From NCBI GenBank assembly GCA_012522835.1, contig JAAYJR010000538.1, positions 1-51,963 of the forward strand: a DNA stretch of 51,963 nt, given 5' to 3'. The position numbers and the translations under genes were made by a program. This DNA comes from Bacteroidales bacterium (GTDB taxonomy: Bacteria; Bacteroidota; Bacteroidia; Bacteroidales; Prolixibacteraceae). Positions 34,564 to 42,911 of this stretch are shown here, piece by piece (the first letter of the stretch is position 1; every line of letters begins with the position of its first letter). A model generated the notes under the pieces. The model saw only the letters and a list, made by a program, of their open reading frames with translations, made no database searches and was not told the DNA's origin.

Positions 34564-36137
34564 TGTTTTTACTGATGGTCAATAAGGAGTTAGCCGGCCT
34601 CCTTACCCGGTTTTCCCTGGTAATGATACTCCTTTTGGCCTTTTCCCCAACATTCTCCCAGACAAAAAAAAGGGTAGATATTGAACAGGCTGATTACCTG
34701 GAATCAAGTGAACACATAGCTGCTAATGCACAGAGGCTTTTAGGGAATGTAAGAATCAGGCATCAGGATATTCTCATGTGGTGCGACAGCGCTTATACAT
34801 ACACAGGCACAAACAGAGTTGATGCGTTCGGGAATGTCCGTATAAACCAGGGTGATACAATTGATCTGTATGCAAATACAATATTCTATGACGGAGACAT
34901 CAGTTTTGCCAGGGCATCCGGCAATGTTAAACTACTTAATAAATCAACTACCCTCTTCTGTGACACTCTTGAATATGATATCGAATCAAATATTGGCTAT
35001 TATGATACAGGTGGTAAAATTGTTGACAGCACAAATATTTTAACAAGCATTATTGCAAGGTATTATTTAGATCTGGACATGATCTATTTCTATGAAGATG
35101 TAAATGCCTATAATGATGACTATACCCTTGAAAATGATACTCTTATATATAACACTAATTCAGGGTTATATCTTATAAAAGGACCGACAACAATTCGTGA
35201 CTCAGCGTATACTCTCTATGCAGAAGACGGTTGGTATAATTCAAAGACCGGAGAAGCTGAACTTACAGAGCACGCGCGCGTTTTTGATGAAAAGCAGGAA
35301 CTGAGGGCAGATTACATAAGATATAATGAAACTGACGGGAAAGGGAAAGCTCTGGGGAATGTACATATTCAGGATTATGAAAATAAAATTATAGTAACCG
35401 GTGAAACTGCGGCTTATTCAGATGAATTTGAAATTGCCACTGTTACAGACTCTGCCCTGTTTCAAATGTATTCAGAGGAAGACACTCTTTTTCTTCATGC
35501 CGATACATTGCGGACTGTACCTGATACTATCGAAGGAGAAAAGCTTGTCATGGCCTTCTATGGAACCCGATTTTTTCGTACAGATCTTCAGGGTGTCTGC
35601 GATTCCCTGGTCTATTTCTCTAAAGACTCCGTAGTTGAACTTCATCATAATCCGGTAATATGGTCTGAAATACATCAGTTAAGTGCTGACATGATAAATA
35701 TGAAACAAAATACCGGCGCCCCCGACGAGATTCATTTATTAAACAACAGCTTTATAATCTCAAAATTAGATTCAGGCAGGTTCGACCAGATAAAAGGGAG
35801 GGAAATGGTTGGATTTATAACCGATAACAAACTCTCAAAAATAGATGTTAATGGAAGTGGACAGACACTCTATTATGCAAGGGAGGATACAACGATTATA
35901 GGACTAAACAAAGCTGAAAGCAGCAGAATAGCAATACAATTCAGGGAAGAAAAAATTTATAGGATCTCATTTCTTCAGTCTCCGCTGGGAACATTAAAAC
36001 CTCTTTTTGATGTAACCGAGGAGGAGAAAAAACTCAGCGGCTTCGATTGGAAAATTTCCCTTCGCCCGATGTCAAAGGAGGACCTGTTTATACATAATGC
36101 CCGGGAGCCAGATAAAATAAACAACATTCAACCCTGA
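34563..36137 (+). CDS. OstA/LptA-like beta-jellyroll repeat protein (LPS-transport-related), secreted
   Basis: Signal peptide. Repeated OstA_N-like segments (GNVRIRHQD..., GNVRINQGD..., GNVKLLNKS..., GNVHIQD...). The ATG overlaps the moxR stop (TAATG). Confidence 0.6.
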   Translation: MFLLMVNKELAGLLTRFSLVMILLLAFSPTFSQTKKRVDIEQADYLESSEHIAANAQRLLGNVRIRHQDILMWCDSAYTYTGTNRVDAFGNVRINQGDTIDLYANTIFYDGDISFARASGNVKLLNKSTTLFCDTLEYDIESNIGYYDTGGKIVDSTNILTSIIARYYLDLDMIYFYEDVNAYNDDYTLENDTLIYNTNSGLYLIKGPTTIRDSAYTLYAEDGWYNSKTGEAELTEHARVFDEKQELRADYIRYNETDGKGKALGNVHIQDYENKIIVTGETAAYSDEFEIATVTDSALFQMYSEEDTLFLHADTLRTVPDTIEGEKLVMAFYGTRFFRTDLQGVCDSLVYFSKDSVVELHHNPVIWSEIHQLSADMINMKQNTGAPDEIHLLNNSFIISKLDSGRFDQIKGREMVGFITDNKLSKIDVNGSGQTLYYAREDTTIIGLNKAESSRIAIQFREEKIYRISFLQSPLGTLKPLFDVTEEEKKLSGFDWKISLRPMSKEDLFIHNAREPDKINNIQP

Positions 36138-36307
36138 ATCTGTATAAAACCTGAATATTATTGTAGCATCCCGTCCGGATGTTGACCTGTTAATTTTTGA
36201 TTAAAATAACATTAAATGTTAATTCTGTTATTAATTTTATTCAATAATTATCATCAACTTCTTTTCATTTAAAAAAATATTTTAATATTTGCATCAGAAC
36301 ATAAAAA

Positions 36308-36379
36308 ATGAAGTTAATAAGTAACATATCAATTCTCAGCCTTATTATTGGCATTATTCTTCTAGACAAGAATAAATGA
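36308..36379 (+). CDS. Leader peptide of the leu/ilv-type operon (23 aa, 7 Ile + 5 Leu)
   Basis: ATG AAG TTA ATA AGT AAC ATA TCA ATT CTC AGC CTT ATT ATT GGC ATT ATT CTT CTA GAC AAG AAT AAA TGA translates to MKLISNISILSLIIGIILLDKNK. It is followed directly by alternative hairpins and a U-tract terminator, 110 nt upstream of leuA. Confidence 0.7.
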   Translation: MKLISNISILSLIIGIILLDKNK

Positions 36380-36449
36380 GAATGGTATGTAGTTAATCTT
36401 ATAAAAAAACAAGAGTAAGCCATTCTCATAAAAAGAGGATGGCTTTTTT
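36354..36449 (+). promoter_or_regulatory. Transcription attenuator with mutually exclusive antiterminator and terminator helices
   Basis: Helix 1:2 pairs TTATTCTT (36354-61) with AAGAATAA (36368-75). The antiterminator pairs ATGAGAATGG (36376-85) with CCATTCTCAT (36420-29), 10 perfect bp. The terminator pairs AGCCATTCTC (36418-27) with GAGGATGGCT (36435-44, one G-U) and runs into TTTTTT (36444-49). Confidence 0.7.
36418..36449 (+). terminator. Intrinsic terminator of the leu leader
   Basis: 10-bp stem, 7-nt loop (ATAAAAA) and a 6-T tract that ends 40 nt before the leuA ATG. Confidence 0.7.
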
Positions 36450-36488
36450 CGTAAAATAAACAGGATATAATTAAACATTTATAAAACG

Positions 36489-37994
36489 ATGAGTGATAAA
36501 CTTTATATTTTTGATACCACCCTGCGCGACGGCGAGCAGGTTCCCGGATGTCAGTTGAACACAGTGGAAAAAATTGAAGTTGCCAAAGCTCTGCAGGAAC
36601 TGGGAGTTGATATAATTGAAGCAGGATTTCCAATTTCCAGTCCGGGTGACTTTGAATCAGTGGTTGAGATTTCTAAAGCGGTAACCTGGCCTACGATTTG
36701 TGCCCTGACCCGCGCAGTTCAAAAAGATATTGATGTGGCTGCCGAATCCCTGAAATATGCAAAAAAAGGCAGAATTCACACCGGTATCGGCACCTCTTAT
36801 TATCATATCTACAAAAAGCTGAATTCTAATCCGGAGGCTATTATTGAGCGGGCTGTTGAAGCTGTTAAATATGCAAAAAAATATGTTGAGGATGTAGAGT
36901 TTTATGCAGAGGACGCAGGCCGGACAGATAATGAATATCTTGCAAAAGTTGTGGAAGCTGTTATTAAAGCAGGTGCGACAGTCGTTAACATTCCTGATAC
37001 TACAGGGTACTGCCTGCCTCAGGAATTTGGAGAGAAGATAAAATACCTTCACGAAAATGTAAGTGGCATACATAAGGCAATAATCTCTACACATTGTCAT
37101 AATGACCTGGGTATGGCAACTGCCAACACTGTTTCAGGAATAATAAATGGTGCACGACAAGCTGAGGTGACTATCAACGGAATTGGGGAACGTGCAGGCA
37201 ATACCTCACTTGAAGAGGTGGTTATGATCATGAAGAGCCGTTATAAGGTCCTCGGTATCAAAACAGGCATAAACACGAAAAATATTTACCGCACCAGCAG
37301 ACTGGTTTCTACTCTGATGAATATGCCGGTACAGCCCAATAAGGCAATAGTCGGACGAAATGCTTTTGCCCACTCTTCAGGTATCCACCAGGACGGGGTA
37401 TTGAAGCATCGCGAAAATTATGAGATCATGGATCCTGTCGATGTGGGAATCAATGAGTCAGTTATCTTGCTGACAGCACGCAGCGGACGGGCTGCACTAA
37501 AACACCGTCTTGAAATAATGGGGTATAAACTCAGTAAAGAGAAGCTGGATGAGATATATGAGGAATTTTTGAAACTTGCTGATAAGAAAAAAGATATCCG
37601 TGACGACGATATAGCTCTGCTGGCAGGTGATGCACGACGTAAAGAGCATCGAATTAAACTGGATTTCTTACAGGTACTGACAGGAAAAAATATTGTGCCT
37701 GCTGCTATTGTCAGACTGGATATAGCAGGAGAAAAATTTGATGCAACATCAACGGGTAACGGTCCTGTAGATGCTGCAATAAAGGCAGTTAAGCAGATAA
37801 TTCGCAGACAGGTCTCAATTGAAGAGTTCCTCGTTCAGGCTATCACCCGGGGTAGCGATGATATTGGAAAAGTACATATGCAAATACAATATAATGACTC
37901 AATATATAACGGATTTGGTGCACATACAGATATTGTAACTGCTTCAGTAGAAGCGTTTCTGGATGCAGTAAATAAATTTCCGGTTAGTCAGTAA
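36489..37994 (+). CDS. leuA: 2-isopropylmalate synthase
   Basis: [23 protein letters not shown], and a C-terminal LeuA allosteric domain. Confidence 0.9.
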
Positions 37995-38010
37995 TATAAA
38001 AATAAGATCA

Positions 38011-39411
38011 ATGACAGCAAAAACATTATTTGATAAAATATGGGATTCACACATAGTGAAATCAGTCAAAGGGGGGCCTGATGTTTTATATATCGACCGC
38101 CATCTGATTCATGAAGTAACAAGCCCTGTGGCTTTTCTGGGACTTAAACAGCGGGGATTAAAGGTTTTCAGGCCTGATCAGACCACTGCTACTCCTGATC
38201 ATAATGTACCAACTGAAAACCAGCATCTTACAATATTGGATGAATTATCACGCCACCAGGTGGAGATGCTTAGGAAAAATTGTAACGAACATGGTATTAA
38301 ATATCATGACCTTCAGACAGAAGGACATGGCATAGTGCATATTATCGGACCTGAAATGGGACTAACACAACCAGGAATGACAATTGTGTGTGGTGACAGC
38401 CATACGTCAACTCATGGTGCATTTGGTGCTATCGCCTTTGGAATCGGTACCAGCGAGGTGGAGATGGTACTGGCCAGCCAGTGTATTATGCAGCCCAAAC
38501 CAAAAAAAATGAGGATAACGGTTACAGGCCAGCTCAGGAAAGGTGTTACTGCTAAAGATATTGCCCTGTATATAATATCACAAATTTCCACAAGTGGTGG
38601 CACCGGCCATTTTATTGAGTATGAAGGCAGTGCAATCACCGGACTGTCGATGGAGGGCAGAATGACCCTGTGTAACCTTAGCATTGAGAGCGGTGCCAGG
38701 GGCGGTATGATAGCGCCCGATGAGACCACTGTAAACTATATTAAAGGAAGAGAATATGCACCGAAAGGAAGCGACTGGGAGAAAGCATTAGTATCCTGGA
38801 GTGAGCTGAAATCAGACGAAGGTGCACAGTTCGATATGGAGTATACTTTCAACGCTGATGATATAGAGCCGATGATTACATATGGCACTAACCCGGGGAT
38901 GGGAATCGGAATAACAGGATCTATTCCCACTACAGAAAATATGACTGACAATGACAAAAATAACTTCACTAAGTCATTGAATTATATGGGATATTCAGAG
39001 GGTGAAACTATGCTTGGCAAAAAAGTAGATTATGTTTTTCTGGGCAGCTGTACCAATGGAAGGATTGAGGACTTCAGGGCGTTTGCTTATTTTGTGAAAG
39101 GGAAGAAAAAATCACCTGAGGTCACAGCCTGGCTTGTACCCGGATCACGACAGGTTGAAAAGCAGATTCGGGAAGAGGGACTTACAGAAATTCTGGAAGC
39201 AGCTGGATTTCAGTTACGTCAGCCGGGGTGTTCAGCTTGCCTGGCTATGAATGATGACAAAATACCGGAAGGCAAATATGCAGTCTCTACAACAAACAGA
39301 AATTTCGAAGGACGTCAGGGACCCGGTGCAAGAACATTACTTGCCAGTCCGCTGACAGCAGCAGCAGCAGCTTTGACCGGAGTGATAACTGATCCCAGAA
39401 AATTCCTATAA
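38011..39411 (+). CDS. leuC: 3-isopropylmalate dehydratase large subunit
   Basis: Aconitase-family motifs VCGDSHT and [12 protein letters not shown], plus NRNFEGRQG. Confidence 0.95.
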
Positions 39412-39430
39412 TATTTTAATATTCAACAAT

Positions 39431-40021
39431 ATGGCTTACGATAAATTTTCAAAGATAATCTCCCCGGCGGTACCCTTACAAGCCGAGAATGTAGACACAG
39501 ACCAGATAATTCCGGCAAGATTTTTAAAAGCAACAGAACGGAAAGGATTCGGAGATAACCTTTTTCGCGACTGGAGATATAATAAAGACGGAAGTCCTAA
39601 AGCCGGGTTCCCTCTTAATGAGGATAAATATTCAGGAAAGATATTGGTCGCAGGTAAAAATTTCGGTAGCGGATCAAGCCGCGAACATGCCGCCTGGGCT
39701 ATCTATGACTACGGATTCAGAGTCGTGGTCTCCAGCTTCTTTGCTGATATATTCAAAAATAACGCAATCAATAACGGCTTGTTACCGATTGTTGTTTCAC
39801 CGGATTTTTTGCAAAAGATTTTTATTTCAATTGATAAAGATCCCCAAGCAAAATTTATGGCAGACCTAGATAAACAACAATTTACAATCCTTGATACCAA
39901 CGAATCAGAGTATTTCGAAATCAATGCATATAAAAAGCATTGTTTAAAAAACGGACTTGACGATATCGACTATCTCGTGGCAATGAAAAAGGAGATAGCA
40001 GATTTCGAAAAAGCAAAGTAA
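39431..40021 (+). CDS. leuD: 3-isopropylmalate dehydratase small subunit
   Basis: NFGSGSSREHAAWA swivel-domain motif. 196 aa, directly after leuC. Confidence 0.9.
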   Translation: MAYDKFSKIISPAVPLQAENVDTDQIIPARFLKATERKGFGDNLFRDWRYNKDGSPKAGFPLNEDKYSGKILVAGKNFGSGSSREHAAWAIYDYGFRVVVSSFFADIFKNNAINNGLLPIVVSPDFLQKIFISIDKDPQAKFMADLDKQQFTILDTNESEYFEINAYKKHCLKNGLDDIDYLVAMKKEIADFEKAK

Positions 40022-40032
40022 AATTTATTACC

Positions 40033-41616
40033 ATGACAGGCAAATCGGTTGAAACAGAAAACAGTAACCTAACCATAATGGATACCACCCTGCGCGACGG
40101 GGAGCAGACAACAGGTGTCTCATTCAGCGATGCTGAAAAGCTCACTGTGGCTAAAGTGCTCCTGGACGATGTAAGGGTTGACCGCATTGAAATCGCTTCA
40201 GCGAGGGTATCTGATGGTGAATTTAAAGGAGCCCGGAAAGTATTGCAGTGGGCTTCTGAAAAAGGATACCTCGATAAAATTGAAATATTGGGTTTTGTTG
40301 ATGGTAAAATTTCACTGCAATGGATTGCTGATGCAGGAGGTAAAGTAGTGAACCTGTTGTGCAAAGGGTCATTGAAACATGTTTCTGAACAGCTCCGGAA
40401 GACTCCCGAACAGCACCTGAATGATATTAAAAAGGTTATTCAATATGCCGAAGAGATGGGTATAACGGTAAATATATATCTTGAGGACTGGTCTAACGGA
40501 ATGAGAAATTCAAGAGAGTATGTTCATTTTATGATATCCTCCCTGAAAAAAGAAAAGGTAAACAGAATAATGCTGCCCGACACACTGGGTATACTGAACC
40601 CTGATGAAACTTATGATTTCTGCAGAGAGATGATAGAAACCTATCCCGGTGTGAAGTTCGATTACCATGCACATAATGATTATGATCTTGCTATTGCCAA
40701 TGTTTTCCATGCAATAAAAGCAGGCATACGGTGTGTTCATACAACTGTAAACGGATTAGGAGAAAGAGCAGGTAATGCCCCTCTTTCAAGTGTTATCGCC
40801 ACCATCAAAGATCACCTGAAAATGACAACGCATGTAAATGAAAGCAGGCTGAATAAAATTTCCAGGCTGGTGGAATCGTTTTCAGGGATCCGTATACCTA
40901 CTAATAAACCCCTGATCGGTGAATATGTTTTTACCCAGTGCAGCGGTATACATGCTGACGGTGATAATAAAAACAATCTCTATTTTAACGACCTGTTGCC
41001 TGAGCGATTCGGACGGATAAGAAAATATGCACTGGGAAAGACATCAGGAAAGGCAAATATAAAGAGAAACCTTCAGGAACTGGGCATAGAGCTGGATGAT
41101 GAATCATTGAAGAAAGTTACCAGGCGCATAATTGAACTGGGCGACAAAAAAGAGACTGTTACATCAGACGAACTGCCCTATATTGTTGCAGATGCCCTGC
41201 AGAATGATCTTATCGAACAGAAGATAAAGGTGGTTAACTACTCTGTTAGCCATACGATGGGATTACGCCCTGTTGCCAATGTGAGTATTGAAATCGACGG
41301 GGAACAGTATGCAGAGATCAGTGACGGTGACGGACAATACGATGCTTTTGTTAAAGCGGTCAGAAAAATATATAAAAAACTGGGTAAGTCATTCCCCTCA
41401 CTCATCGATTATGTAGTAACAATTCCACCAGGGGGAAAGACTGATGCATTGGTTGAAACTGTAATAACATGGAAAAATTCAAGGGAATTTAAAACCAAAG
41501 GCCTTGACCCTGATCAAAGTGCTGCAGCTATAAAAGCTACAATACGGATGTTGAATATTATAGAAAATGAGATTAAGCCTGGATTTTTGGAAAAAATTAT
41601 TGACAGTATTTCATAA
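40033..41616 (+). CDS. cimA: 2-isopropylmalate synthase-family paralog, probably (R)-citramalate synthase
   Basis: [11 protein letters not shown] and HAHNDYDLAIAN, with a C-terminal LeuA-dimer regulatory domain. A second paralog lying between leuD and leuB is the usual position of cimA in Bacteroidales as I recall it. Confidence 0.65.
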   Translation: MTGKSVETENSNLTIMDTTLRDGEQTTGVSFSDAEKLTVAKVLLDDVRVDRIEIASARVSDGEFKGARKVLQWASEKGYLDKIEILGFVDGKISLQWIADAGGKVVNLLCKGSLKHVSEQLRKTPEQHLNDIKKVIQYAEEMGITVNIYLEDWSNGMRNSREYVHFMISSLKKEKVNRIMLPDTLGILNPDETYDFCREMIETYPGVKFDYHAHNDYDLAIANVFHAIKAGIRCVHTTVNGLGERAGNAPLSSVIATIKDHLKMTTHVNESRLNKISRLVESFSGIRIPTNKPLIGEYVFTQCSGIHADGDNKNNLYFNDLLPERFGRIRKYALGKTSGKANIKRNLQELGIELDDESLKKVTRRIIELGDKKETVTSDELPYIVADALQNDLIEQKIKVVNYSVSHTMGLRPVANVSIEIDGEQYAEISDGDGQYDAFVKAVRKIYKKLGKSFPSLIDYVVTIPPGGKTDALVETVITWKNSREFKTKGLDPDQSAAAIKATIRMLNIIENEIKPGFLEKIIDSIS

Positions 41617-41664
41617 GAGAGGTTATTGTTTATGGCTGTTTTAAATAATATATCTAATTTTGAT

Positions 41665-41757
41665 CCGTCGGATAAAGCCGACGGCAAGGGAAAAGGCACA
41701 GATAATAGCAGCCTGTTGGTTCAAATCATTATCCATTGCCGTTCGCTTAAGCGAACG
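41665..41757 (+). other. Two GC-rich hairpins in the 230-nt cimA-leuB spacer
   Basis: CCGTCGG-ATAAAG-CCGACGG (41665-41684) and the perfect 18-nt palindrome CGTTCGCTTAAGCGAACG (41740-41757). Neither is followed by a T-tract. Confidence 0.3.
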
Positions 41758-41846
41758 AACAGCCTGATTAACTAAAAATAAAGATACCATTTTGGGCCAC
41801 ACCCATTAACAACTAATTGACAATTAATAAATAAAATTAAATTCGG

Positions 41847-42911
41847 ATGAAGCTAAAGTTAGCAATTCTTCCCGGCGACGGGATAGGGCCTGAGATAATT
41901 GAACAGGCTATGAAAGCAGTAACAGTTATCGCAGAAAAATTTAATCATGATCTAAGTTATGAATATGGATTAACCGGCGCAACTGCCATAGACCAGGTAG
42001 GTGATCCCTATCCGGATTCAACCCACAGCTTGTGCATGAACTCAGATGCAGTCCTCTTTGGTGCCATAGGTGATCCTAAGTTCGATAATAATCCAAAGGC
42101 TACTGTCAGGCCGGAACAGGGATTACTGGCTATGAGAAAAAAACTTGGTTTATATGCCAATATACGGCCAGTAACAACTTTTCAGTCATTACTGCACAAA
42201 TCACCACTTCGCCGGGAACTGATAGAGGGAGCTGACTTTTTATGCATCAGGGAACTTACCGGTGGTATCTACTTTGGTGAAAAAGGAAGAAAAGATAATG
42301 GCAATACAGCATATGACACTAACACATACACCCGTGAAGAGATAGTACGTATCCTGAAACTGGCTTATGAATTTGCCGGTAAACGCCGGAAAAAACTAAC
42401 AGTAGTCGACAAAGCCAATGTCCTTGAAAGCTCACGGCTCTGGCGCGAAGTAGCACAGGAAATGGCGGTAAATTACCCGGATATAAAAACTGAGTATATG
42501 TTTGTCGACAATGCTGCAATGCAGATAATACAATGGCCCAGGAACTTCGATGTAATGGTAACTGAAAATATGTTTGGGGATATTCTTACAGACGAAGCAA
42601 GTGTCATTACAGGGTCACTCGGGTTACTGCCATCAGCTTCTATAGGAATTCATACATCGGTCTTTGAACCTATCCACGGCTCCTATCCGCAGGCTGCCGG
42701 AAAAGATATAGCCAATCCTGTAGCAACTATATTATCTGCAGCAATGATGTTTGAATATGCCTTTAACCTTCAGGAGGAAGCTAAAGCAATCCGCGATGCT
42801 GTAACCGCATCTATGGAACAGGGATTTGTTACCGAAGATATAGCTGACGGACAGGCATATAAAACATCAGAGGCAGGAAACTGGATTGCTGATTATATTG
42901 AAAAACATTAA
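41847..42911 (+). CDS. leuB: 3-isopropylmalate dehydrogenase
   Basis: [11 protein letters not shown]-terminus, [12 protein letters not shown] and [10 protein letters not shown] motifs. Confidence 0.95.

What the first reader, a model, noticed from the sequence alone, without database searches (positions are those of the whole stretch)
36308..36449. Ribosome-mediated attenuator: 23-codon Ile/Leu-rich leader ORF with overlapping antiterminator and terminator, upstream of leuA-leuC-leuD-cimA-leuB
All of the following is read directly from the sequence.
- The leader encodes MKLISNISILSLIIGIILLDKNK. Twelve of its 23 codons are Ile or Leu, and seven of the eight codons from 36341 to 36364 are.
- The stop codon (36377-36379) lies inside ATGAGAATGG (36376-85).
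- That segment can pair perfectly over 10 bp with CCATTCTCAT (36420-29).
- The second segment overlaps AGCCATTCTC (36418-27), which pairs with GAGGATGGCT (36435-44) and is followed by T6, forming an intrinsic terminator.
- An additional 8-bp helix (36354-61 with 36368-75) lies within the last leader codons.

The predicted behaviour follows. A ribosome that reaches the stop codon would occlude the antiterminator strand, so the terminator forms. A ribosome stalled at the Ile/Leu codons would leave the antiterminator strand free, so transcription reads through.

A near-match -7 box, TAATATTTG (36283-91), would start the transcript just upstream.

The mix of Ile and Leu codons fits an operon that contains both the leucine genes and a citramalate synthase. 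The citramalate route to isoleucine shares LeuCD and LeuB.

Leader-peptide attenuation is classically described in Proteobacteria. I believe candidates were predicted computationally in Bacteroidetes/Chlorobi, but I am not aware of experimental characterisation.
Basis: seen in the sequence. Interest (0 to 1): 0.65.

Follow-up and report, generated by a model that had tools for sequence, protein, structure and literature searches.

The report
Ile/Leu leader-peptide attenuator before leuA
A 23-codon mini-gene rich in isoleucine and leucine codons, followed by competing RNA hairpins and a terminator, lies in front of the leucine/isoleucine synthesis operon of a Prolixibacteraceae bacterium; it is a well-conserved example of the textbook ribosome-sensing attenuator, so it is real but ordinary.

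Summary

With it, the element is a complete four-segment attenuator.

Evidence from the sequence and its relatives:
- In a ribosome-masking fold model the antiterminator forms (p=0.99) with the A-site at codons 3-19. These include every Ile/Leu codon. It does not form at codons 22-stop, and reaches p=0.16 without a ribosome.
- A covariance model finds one copy in the window. It also finds one copy, directly upstream of leuA, in 64 related Prolixibacteraceae/Bacteroidales loci.
- Start codon, reading frame and the stop inside segment 2 are conserved.
- Distant clades carry re-designed but still complementary segments.
- Stand-alone leu-cimA operons have Ile+Leu leaders with almost no Val. Relatives with fused ilvD-ilvBN-ilvC-leu operons have homologous Ile/Leu/Val leaders, three of five in tandem.

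No Rfam family matches. Leader-peptide attenuators have already been predicted in Bacteroidota (Flavobacterium ilvE and hisG). I found no experimental study, and no usable RNA data for this organism.

Verdict: a new member of a known kind, of modest interest.

The parts
36262..36293 (+). Conserved promoter block. It holds TTTTCATTT (36262-70) and the -7-like box AATATTTG (36284-91). The transcription start is inferred a few bases downstream, at about 36296-36300.
   Evidence: the block TTTTCATTTTAAAAAAATATTTTCATATTTGCA is nearly identical upstream of the leader in most Prolixibacteraceae relatives. More distant Bacteroidales carry an exact TAnnTTTG 24-40 nt before the leader ATG. The transcription start itself is inferred, not mapped.
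36308..36379 (+). Leader ORF of 23 codons plus TGA: MKLISNISILSLIIGIILLDKNK. Ile/Leu codons are at positions 3, 4, 7, 9, 10, 12, 13, 14, 16, 17, 18 and 19. The stretch before the ATG is A-rich and has no Shine-Dalgarno sequence.
   Evidence: The ATG is invariant in 40 of 40 close relatives. Indels within the ORF are multiples of 3. The TGA lies inside segment 2 and is invariant.
36324..36338 (+). Segment 1, inside leader codons 6-11. It pairs with segment 2 and acts as the anti-antiterminator.
   Evidence: Minimum-free-energy pairs. Pair counts: the two sub-helices are 80% and 90% paired, and 10 of 14 pairs show changes on both sides.
36339..36375 (+). Two small inner hairpins enclosed by the 1:2 helix: GCC/GGC (36339-41/36350-52) and TTATTCTT/AAGAATAA (36354-61/36368-75).
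   Evidence: 88% and 73% of cells paired.
36376..36390 (+). Segment 2. It contains the leader stop codon and pairs either with segment 1 or with segment 3 (as the antiterminator, through 36376-86).
   Evidence: The 2:3 helix is 94-96% paired across relatives, against 38-55% when the partner columns are slid.
36417..36429 (+). Segment 3. It is the 5' arm of the terminator (36417-27) and the partner of segment 2 (36419-29).
   Evidence: GCCATTCTC is invariant in close relatives, while the 3' arm varies only by A/G changes opposite U.
36435..36449 (+). Segment 4, the 3' arm of the terminator (36435-45), and the U-tract (36444-49).
   Evidence: 11-bp stem, 7-nt loop, T run. (-15.2 kcal/mol). (99.7% of cells paired).
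36489..42911 (+). The regulated operon: leuA 36489-37994, leuC 38011-39411, leuD 39431-40021, cimA-like leuA paralogue 40033-41616 and leuB 41847-42911.
   Evidence: NCBIfam hits. leuA-leuC-leuD-cimA synteny holds in nearly all related loci long enough to show it.

Best explanation
This is a classical four-segment, ribosome-mediated transcription attenuator. It controls leuA-leuC-leuD-cimA(-like)-leuB.

How it most likely works:
1. Transcription starts a few bases after the -7-like box.
2. A ribosome loads on the A-rich, Shine-Dalgarno-free 5' end and translates the 23-codon leader while RNA polymerase transcribes ahead.
3. If charged tRNA-Ile and tRNA-Leu are plentiful, the ribosome runs to the TGA. 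It then covers segment 2 (36376-90). Segment 3 pairs with segment 4, the terminator forms, and transcription stops at about 36449.
4. If either amino acid is short, the ribosome stalls at one of the 12 Ile/Leu codons (codons 3-19). This melts or covers segment 1 and leaves segment 2 free.
5. Segment 2 then pairs with segment 3 before segment 4 is made, the terminator cannot form, and the operon is transcribed.
6. Without any translation, segment 1 pairs with segment 2 and the terminator forms.

What is shown: the ORF, all helices and their mutual exclusivity, their conservation and covariation, and the match between the regulatory codon set and the operon's gene content.

What is inferred: the transcription start, translation of the leader, coupling of ribosome and polymerase, termination in vivo, and the response to Ile or Leu.
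For: Anatomy:
- establish the ORF and the helices.
- Energies are -21.5 kcal/mol for the 1:2 domain, -14.3 for 2:3 and -15.2 for 3:4. As I recall the E. coli trp attenuator, its terminator is also more stable than its antiterminator.

Ribosome-mask model on the transcript cut just after segment 3:
- Antiterminator probability is 0.99 with the A-site at codons 3-19, 0.8 at codon 20, and about 0 at codons 22-stop.
- Without a ribosome it is 0.16.

The same test on 57 homologous leaders gives mean probabilities of 0.84 when stalled at Ile/Leu codons, 0.10 at the stop and 0.33 without a ribosome. Forty-four of the 57 exceed 0.7 when stalled and stay below 0.3 at the stop.

Conservation:
- Covariance model R1 hits once in the 52-kb window.
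- It also hits once, directly upstream of leuA, in 64 related loci.
- ATG, TGA and GCCATTCTC are invariant in close relatives.

Pair counts:
- In the terminated state 86.8% of cells are paired. Twenty-two of 36 pairs change on both sides, against 9.9 +/- 1.7 in shuffles (0 of 500 shuffles reach the observed value). Slid controls give 44-54%.
- The antiterminator is 94% paired, against 39-55% when slid.

Distant clades have different but still complementary segment 2/3 sequences. Examples are GGAGTGAGA:TCTCACTCC and TGTGGAAATGGG:CCCATTTCCACA. Cognate duplexes average -17.6 kcal/mol and non-cognate ones -12.3.

The last Ile/Leu codon lies 4-5 codons before the stop in 43 of 62 leaders.

The codon set tracks the pathway:
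- Sixty-one stand-alone leu-cimA leaders have 0 Val in 48, 1 in 12 and 3 in one.
- Seven leaders in front of fused ilvD-ilvBN-ilvC-leu operons have 1-6 Val (Mann-Whitney p=1.6e-7, not corrected for phylogeny).
Against: - There is no in vivo evidence. The metatranscriptome contigs that touch the region have depth 2-4, start upstream of the predicted promoter, and cannot show a transcription start or a premature 3' end.
- At equilibrium on the full leader RNA the terminator wins whatever the ribosome position. The switch therefore works only if it is kinetic, as is generally accepted for the classical attenuators, and that is assumed here.
- Transcription-translation coupling, and translation initiation on this Shine-Dalgarno-free leader, have not been shown in this phylum as far as I could find.
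- The pair counts come from an alignment fitted to the model. The sequences are also related, so the shuffle counts overstate significance.
- The identity of the cimA-like gene is inferred. It scores 671 bits against NCBIfam's CimA cut-off of 950.
Confidence: 0.88

Rival explanations
1. The element is a leader-peptide attenuator, but it responds to only one of the two amino acids. The other codons would be present because of RNA-structure or AU-composition constraints.
For: Many Ile/Leu codons lie in paired stretches: ATT CTC in segment 1, and ATT ATT CTT in the inner helix. Part of their conservation could therefore be structural. Leader codon choice is skewed. ATT makes up 79% of Ile codons, and CTA 29% of Leu codons against 6% in genes. 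That could reflect pairing needs.
Against: Both residues are kept at about 5 codons each across 62 leaders, even where the helices have been re-designed. Val, which is equally AU-compatible (GTT, GTA), is nearly absent here. It appears only where the ilv genes join the operon. The operon encodes both the Leu pathway and a citramalate-synthase-like enzyme.
Confidence: 0.08
2. The ORF encodes a functional small hydrophobic membrane peptide, and the hairpin is an ordinary leaky terminator or transcript-stabilising structure. There would be no amino-acid sensing.
For: The peptide motif ISILSLIIGIILL is conserved and would make a transmembrane-like helix.
Against: The conserved nucleotides are explained by pairing. 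The first two bases of the Ser and Gly codons are paired, while their third positions vary. Distant relatives keep the Ile/Leu richness and the helices but not the peptide sequence. The stop codon always lies inside the antiterminator strand. The element is always linked to leu or ilv operons, and its codon content follows theirs.
Confidence: 0.03
3. Antitermination is controlled by a trans factor (an RNA-binding protein, or uncharged tRNA as in T-boxes) that binds the leader, and the ORF is incidental.
For: Segment 2 (TGAGAATGGTATG) and segment 3 (GCCATTCTC) are unusually invariant in close relatives. The promoter block is also more conserved than a promoter needs to be.
Against: No T-box, PyrR-type or other Rfam family scores near its threshold; the best hit is 23 bits against a gathering score of 60. 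The invariance is expected for strands that each have two pairing partners. The ORF's start, frame and stop position are conserved over 60 or more loci, which an incidental ORF would not show.
Confidence: 0.02

Closest known systems
Enterobacterial leu operon attenuator (leuL leader peptide; Rfam Leu_leader RF00512)
   Same: It has a short leader ORF with regulatory Leu codons, alternative 1:2, 2:3 and 3:4 helices, and an intrinsic terminator just upstream of leuA. Rare CUA Leu codons are favoured in the leader. For the window's family this is; for E. coli it is from my own knowledge.
   Different: There is no sequence or structure homology: no Rfam hit at E up to 10. The sensor here mixes about equal numbers of Ile and Leu codons, spread over 17 codons, rather than four consecutive Leu codons. 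There is no Shine-Dalgarno sequence. The operon also carries a citramalate-synthase-like gene.
E. coli ilvGMEDA attenuator (ilvL), the multivalent Ile/Leu/Val attenuator
   Same: A single leader peptide senses more than one branched-chain amino acid. The codon set matches the products of the downstream enzymes.
   Different: ilvL includes Val codons. The window's leader has none, and its family almost none. Val appears only in the homologous leaders of fused ilv-leu operons. The two elements are not homologous in sequence.
Predicted leader-peptide attenuators of Flavobacterium psychrophilum (ilvE leader MRKFNIIPSIIIAIVIITTAKGML; hisG leader), PMC9723704 supplement
   Same: They are from the same phylum. 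Each is a short ORF rich in the relevant amino acid, inside a structured 5' region that was mapped by transcriptomics. TGGTATG follows the stop codon in the hisG leader, as it does here.
   Different: They belong to a different operon and a different class (Flavobacteriia). I did not test homology to the window's element. In that paper they are likewise predictions, without mutational tests.
Staphylococcus aureus ilvD leader (leucine-rich attenuator peptide), PMC5794164
   Same: It is a leader-peptide attenuator of a branched-chain amino-acid operon outside Proteobacteria. I know this from the title and abstract only.
   Different: It is from a Firmicute and acts together with CodY, per the title and abstract listed. 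The sequence and the operon are unrelated to the window's.

Membership tests
Classical ribosome-mediated (leader-peptide) transcription attenuators | A short ORF with a start codon, enriched in codons for the end products of the operon | tested here: met
   Twelve of 23 codons are Ile or Leu. Across 62 homologues the means are 5.3 Ile and 5.2 Leu. Such richness arises in 1.3% of random stop-free strings.
Classical ribosome-mediated (leader-peptide) transcription attenuators | An intrinsic terminator between the leader ORF and the first structural gene | tested here: met
   An 11-bp stem at 36417-45 with a T run to 36449, 39 nt before leuA. A hairpin plus T run was found after 57 of the 62 candidate leader ORFs. 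Covariance model R1 also matched four of the five where that scan found none.
Classical ribosome-mediated (leader-peptide) transcription attenuators | An antiterminator helix that uses the terminator's 5' arm, so the two are mutually exclusive | tested here: met
   36376-86 pairs with 36419-29. The helix is 94-96% paired in relatives. Distant clades carry re-designed complementary pairs.
Classical ribosome-mediated (leader-peptide) transcription attenuators | An anti-antiterminator (segment 1:2) that overlaps the leader coding region | tested here: met
   36324-38 pairs with 36377-90 over 14 bp. Ten of the 14 pairs change on both sides across 54 sequences.
Classical ribosome-mediated (leader-peptide) transcription attenuators | Geometry: a ribosome at the stop codon occludes segment 2, and a ribosome at the regulatory codons leaves it free | tested here: met
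   The TGA lies inside segment 2 and is invariant. Masking model: antiterminator p=0.99 at codons 3-19 and about 0 at codons 22-stop. Means over 57 relatives are 0.84 and 0.10.
Classical ribosome-mediated (leader-peptide) transcription attenuators | A premature 3' end in vivo, and read-through induced by starvation for the cognate amino acid | not testable with these tools
   Only sparse metatranscriptome contigs cover the region (depth 2-4). They are uninformative.
Classical ribosome-mediated (leader-peptide) transcription attenuators | The leader ORF is translated | not testable with these tools
   The only support is indirect: conserved ATG, frame-preserving indels and an A-rich upstream stretch.
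Rfam Leu_leader (RF00512), the enterobacterial leuL | A match to the family's covariance model | tested here: not met
   cmscan of 35900-36700 against all 4227 Rfam 15 families at E up to 10 lists no Leu_leader hit. The best hit of any family scores 23 bits against a gathering score of 60.
T-box leaders (tRNA-sensing antitermination) | Specifier loop and T-box sequence, detected by the Rfam T-box model | tested here: not met
   No T-box hit at E up to 10.

The most novel reading that the evidence does not exclude
The element may belong to a Bacteroidia-wide attenuator family that is not in Rfam. In that family the sensor-codon set would be re-tuned as the operon changes:
- Ile+Leu, with no Val, in front of stand-alone leuA-leuCD-cimA-leuB operons. 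This implies that the citramalate route supplies isoleucine.
- Ile+Leu+Val, often as two attenuators in tandem, where ilvD-ilvBN-ilvC is fused upstream.

The family would work without a Shine-Dalgarno sequence, which would make it a natural handle on transcription-translation coupling in Bacteroidota.
Probability: 0.55. Interest if true: 0.45.

Novelty: new member of a known kind. Interest (0 to 1): 0.3.

Why it matters
The mechanism is textbook, so the finding adds no new principle. It does three useful things.
- It gives a well-defined, widely conserved regulatory RNA family (a covariance model and about 70 members) for a phylum whose gene regulation is poorly charted and where Rfam has no entry for it.
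- The Ile+Leu-without-Val sensor is indirect evidence that the leuA paralogue in the operon is a citramalate synthase, and that LeuCD and LeuB serve isoleucine synthesis in these bacteria.
- The element needs a ribosome to follow RNA polymerase closely on an mRNA without a Shine-Dalgarno sequence. It is therefore a convenient reporter for testing translation initiation and transcription-translation coupling in Bacteroidota.

Tried and rejected
- **Equilibrium folding of the complete leader with a masked 5' part.** The terminator always wins (p about 0.95). This cannot test a kinetic switch, so I replaced it with folding of the transcript cut just after segment 3.
- **First version of the relatives test.** The script crashed, and it counted any pairing of segment 3. 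I rewrote it to count only pairing with the stop-codon zone.
- **RNA evidence.** The organism is known only from metagenomes. The RNA runs are Logan contigs at depth 2-4. One contig (X26, 36230-36460) ends 11 nt past the U-tract but starts upstream of the predicted promoter. I judged this inconclusive.
A scan of the 52-kb window for other amino-acid-biased mini-ORFs followed by T runs found no other credible candidate.
- **Literature.** I found no paper with experimental work on a Bacteroidota leu leader. I recall Vitreschak et al. 2004 as predicting attenuators in Bacteroidetes/Chlorobi, but it is not in the library, so this rests on memory. The B. thetaiotaomicron supplements list a predicted terminator labelled BT_1862, near the leu gene numbers. 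I could not tie it to a leader.
- **Rejected: the hairpin is the terminator of the upstream LptA/OstA-like gene.** That gene ends at 36137. A conserved promoter block lies in between, and the hairpin always travels with the leader ORF.
- **Rejected: some relatives have lost the leader.** Ten of the twelve loci with enough upstream sequence but no leader have an ilv-sized gene on the same strand ending 4-112 nt before leuA, which places leuA inside an ilvD-ilvBN(-ilvC)-leu operon. L062's printed gap of 379 is an artefact: its 348-aa ORF ends 18 nt before leuA. L074 is the exception (a minus-strand gene and a 317-nt gap); I did not follow it. In the five loci fetched, homologous attenuators lie upstream of ilvD.

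Full report
**1. The observation**

- An ATG-started ORF at 36308-36379 encodes MKLISNISILSLIIGIILLDKNK. Twelve of its 23 codons are Ile or Leu.
- The TGA stop lies inside ATGAGAATGG (36376-85), which is the perfect reverse complement of CCATTCTCAT (36420-29).
- The pattern scan calls a terminator-like hairpin at 36417-36445 followed by Ts up to 36449.
- A perfect 8-bp inner helix joins 36354-61 and 36368-75.

Two details need correcting. The six Ts are 36444-49 and the first two belong to the stem. The -7 box in proper register is the 8-mer AATATTTG (36284-91).

In the minimum-free-energy fold, 36324-38 (codons 6-11) pairs over 14 bp with 36377-90. This is the segment 1:2 pairing of classical attenuators.

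The region is far more structured than shuffles of it (z = -5.96, 0 of 200). A 10-nt perfect complement to the terminator arm arises in 0.1% of shuffles.

**2. Context**

The downstream genes are leuA, leuC, leuD, a leuA paralogue and leuB. The paralogue's best match is Leptospira-type citramalate synthase, at 671 bits against a curated cut-off of 950.

The upstream gene, an LptA/OstA-like ORF, ends at 36137. No Rfam family matches the leader. The best hit is 23 bits against a gathering score of 60, and there is no Leu_leader or T-box hit.

**3. Does the geometry work?**

The three alternative structures have energies of -21.5 kcal/mol (1:2 domain), -14.3 (2:3) and -15.2 (3:4).

At equilibrium on the full leader the terminator always wins. 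The switch must therefore be kinetic, as is generally accepted for the classical attenuators.

I folded the transcript as it exists just before segment 4 is made, forcing the part covered by a ribosome to stay unpaired. The antiterminator then has probability:
- 0.99 for an A-site at codons 3-19, which include all twelve Ile/Leu codons;
- 0.8 at codon 20;
- about 0 at codons 22-stop;
- 0.16 without a ribosome, where 1:2 forms instead.

The last Leu codon (36362-64) places the front edge of a stalled ribosome right at the start of segment 2.

**4. Relatives**

A scan of one genome per species with the LeuA protein returned 80 loci. They come from Prolixibacteraceae and other Bacteroidales-type genomes.
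- Sixty-two have an Ile/Leu-rich mini-ORF upstream of leuA.
- In the close relatives the motif is ISILSLIIGIILL. A hairpin plus T run was found after 57 of the 62 ORFs, ending roughly 50-85 nt (mostly about 60-70) past the stop.
- In an alignment of 40 close relatives, the ATG, the TGA and GCCATTCTC are invariant. All indels inside the ORF are multiples of three.
- The terminator's 3' arm varies only by A/G changes opposite U. That is the signature expected when the 5' arm has two partners.

I built covariance model R1 from this alignment.
- It hits once in the 52-kb window.
- It hits the plus strand once in each of 64 loci, always just upstream of leuA.
- These include loci my ORF or terminator scans had missed, one of which appears to start with GTG (L032).

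Pair counts on 54 sequences:
- For the terminated state, 86.8% of cells are paired. Twenty-two of 36 pairs change on both sides, against 9.9 +/- 1.7 in shuffles. Slid controls give 44-54%.
- The antiterminator is 94% paired, against 39-55% when slid.

These alignments are fitted to the model and the sequences are related, so the shuffle counts overstate significance. The slid controls and the next point are more telling.

Distant clades carry different sequences that are still complementary. Examples are GGAGTGAGA with TCTCACTCC, GGAAGTGAGA with TCTCACTTCC, and TGTGGAAATGGG with CCCATTTCCACA. Cognate segment 2/3 duplexes average -17.6 kcal/mol and non-cognate combinations -12.3.

Applied to 57 relatives, the ribosome-mask test gives mean antiterminator probabilities of 0.84 (stalled at Ile/Leu), 0.10 (at the stop) and 0.33 (no ribosome).

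**5. Codon set and operon content**

The 62 leaders average 5.3 Ile, 5.2 Leu and 0.26 Val codons. leuA-leuC-leuD-cimA synteny holds in nearly all loci long enough to show it.

Twelve loci with enough upstream sequence lack a leader directly before leuA. Ten of them have an ilv-sized gene on the same strand ending 4-112 nt before leuA, so leuA sits inside a larger operon. The three upstream ORF types I tested are ilvB, ilvN and ilvC, and L055 begins inside ilvD.

I fetched the regions upstream of ilvD for five of them. They contain elements that model R1 recognises, at E from 4e-10 to 0.04. Their leaders carry 1-6 Val codons besides Ile and Leu. In contrast, 48 of 61 stand-alone leaders have no Val (Mann-Whitney p = 1.6e-7, not corrected for phylogeny).

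Three of the five have two attenuators in tandem.

So the sensor codons follow the products of the operon. This is what amino-acid sensing predicts, and a structural RNA or a membrane peptide would not predict it.

**6. Promoter and translation start**

The 35 nt before the leader are strikingly conserved in Prolixibacteraceae (TTTTCATTTTAAAAAAATATTTTCATATTTGCA). More distant relatives have an exact Bacteroides-type TAnnTTTG box 24-40 nt before the leader ATG.

The 5' untranslated stretch would be only about 10-15 nt. It is A-rich and has no Shine-Dalgarno sequence. From my own knowledge, this fits translation initiation in this phylum. The transcription start is inferred.

**7. RNA data**

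The organism occurs in digester, landfill and bioreactor metagenomes.

The few RNA runs that hold the stretch are available only as low-depth contigs. They neither show nor exclude a transcription start or a premature 3' end.

**8. What is known**

- Leader-peptide attenuation has been proposed for Bacteroidota from transcriptome maps. Flavobacterium psychrophilum has an Ile-rich 25-aa leader before ilvE and a His-rich leader before hisG (PMC9723704).
- In Bacteroides thetaiotaomicron, long 5' UTRs with small ORFs were called reminiscent of leader peptides (PMC7366714).
- I recall an older comparative-genomics prediction for Bacteroidetes/Chlorobi (Vitreschak et al. 2004). I could not retrieve it.
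- I found no experimental dissection of such an element in this phylum.
- Earlier notes of this scan describe the same kind of leader before leuA or ilvD in other Bacteroidales genomes. I treated them as leads and re-derived the points I use.

**9. Verdict**

The element works like the enterobacterial leu and ilvGMEDA attenuators. It is not homologous to them and belongs to no Rfam family.

It is a new, well-populated member of a known kind.

Noticed in passing
L084:2430-2739, L086:2622-2978, L085:2493-2801: Relatives with a fused ilvD-ilvBN-ilvC-leuA-leuCD-cimA-leuB operon carry two leader-peptide attenuators in tandem upstream of ilvD. The first of each pair keeps the leu-type GCCATTCTC terminator arm (GCCATTTTC in L085). 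In L084 and L086 the second has a GCCTTTCTC arm; I did not inspect L085's second arm. The leaders contain Val as well as Ile and Leu. The first ORF in L085 looks degenerate.
   Followed up: partly
window 36262-36293: The promoter block TTTTCATTT...ATATTTGCA is almost identical across many Prolixibacteraceae genera, more than a -33/-7 promoter would seem to need. In relatives TTTTCAT occurs twice. It could hold a binding site for a second regulator.
   Followed up: partly
window 36383-36390: TGGTATG directly after the leader stop codon is kept even in clades where the rest of segment 2 has changed. It also follows the stop codon of the Flavobacterium psychrophilum hisG leader (PMC9723704 supplement). 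In the leu family it pairs with CATATC/CATAC in the leader ORF. Whether it also acts as a polymerase pause signal is open.
   Followed up: partly
window 36308-36379 and homologous leaders: Leu codon choice in the leaders is skewed against that of eight long genes of the window. CTA is 29% against 6%, CTC 21% against 11% and CTG 9% against 35%. ATT makes up 79% of Ile codons against 39%. I recall a similar use of rare Leu codons in the E. coli leu leader. RNA pairing could also explain the skew.
   Followed up: partly
L032:2790-2932: The leader homologue in this Draconibacterium MAG appears to start with GTG rather than ATG (GTG AAG TTA CAT ATC AAC ATA TCT ATT CTT ...).
   Followed up: no
window 40033-41616: The leuA paralogue called cimA scores best against NCBIfam's Leptospira-type (R)-citramalate synthase model (671 bits). 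That is below the curated cut-off of 950, so its substrate is inferred, not established.
   Followed up: no
window 41617-41846: A 230-nt gap separates the cimA-like gene from leuB, whereas the other junctions in the operon are 11-19 nt. Many relatives also show gaps there or between leuC, leuD and cimA. I did not examine it.
   Followed up: no
window 36230-36460: One metatranscriptome contig (run X26, 231 nt, 1 mismatch) spans the promoter and leader and ends 11 nt after the U-tract. Other low-depth contigs cover 36162-36332. This is either read-through from the upstream gene or DNA carry-over, and it is too sparse to interpret.
   Followed up: partly
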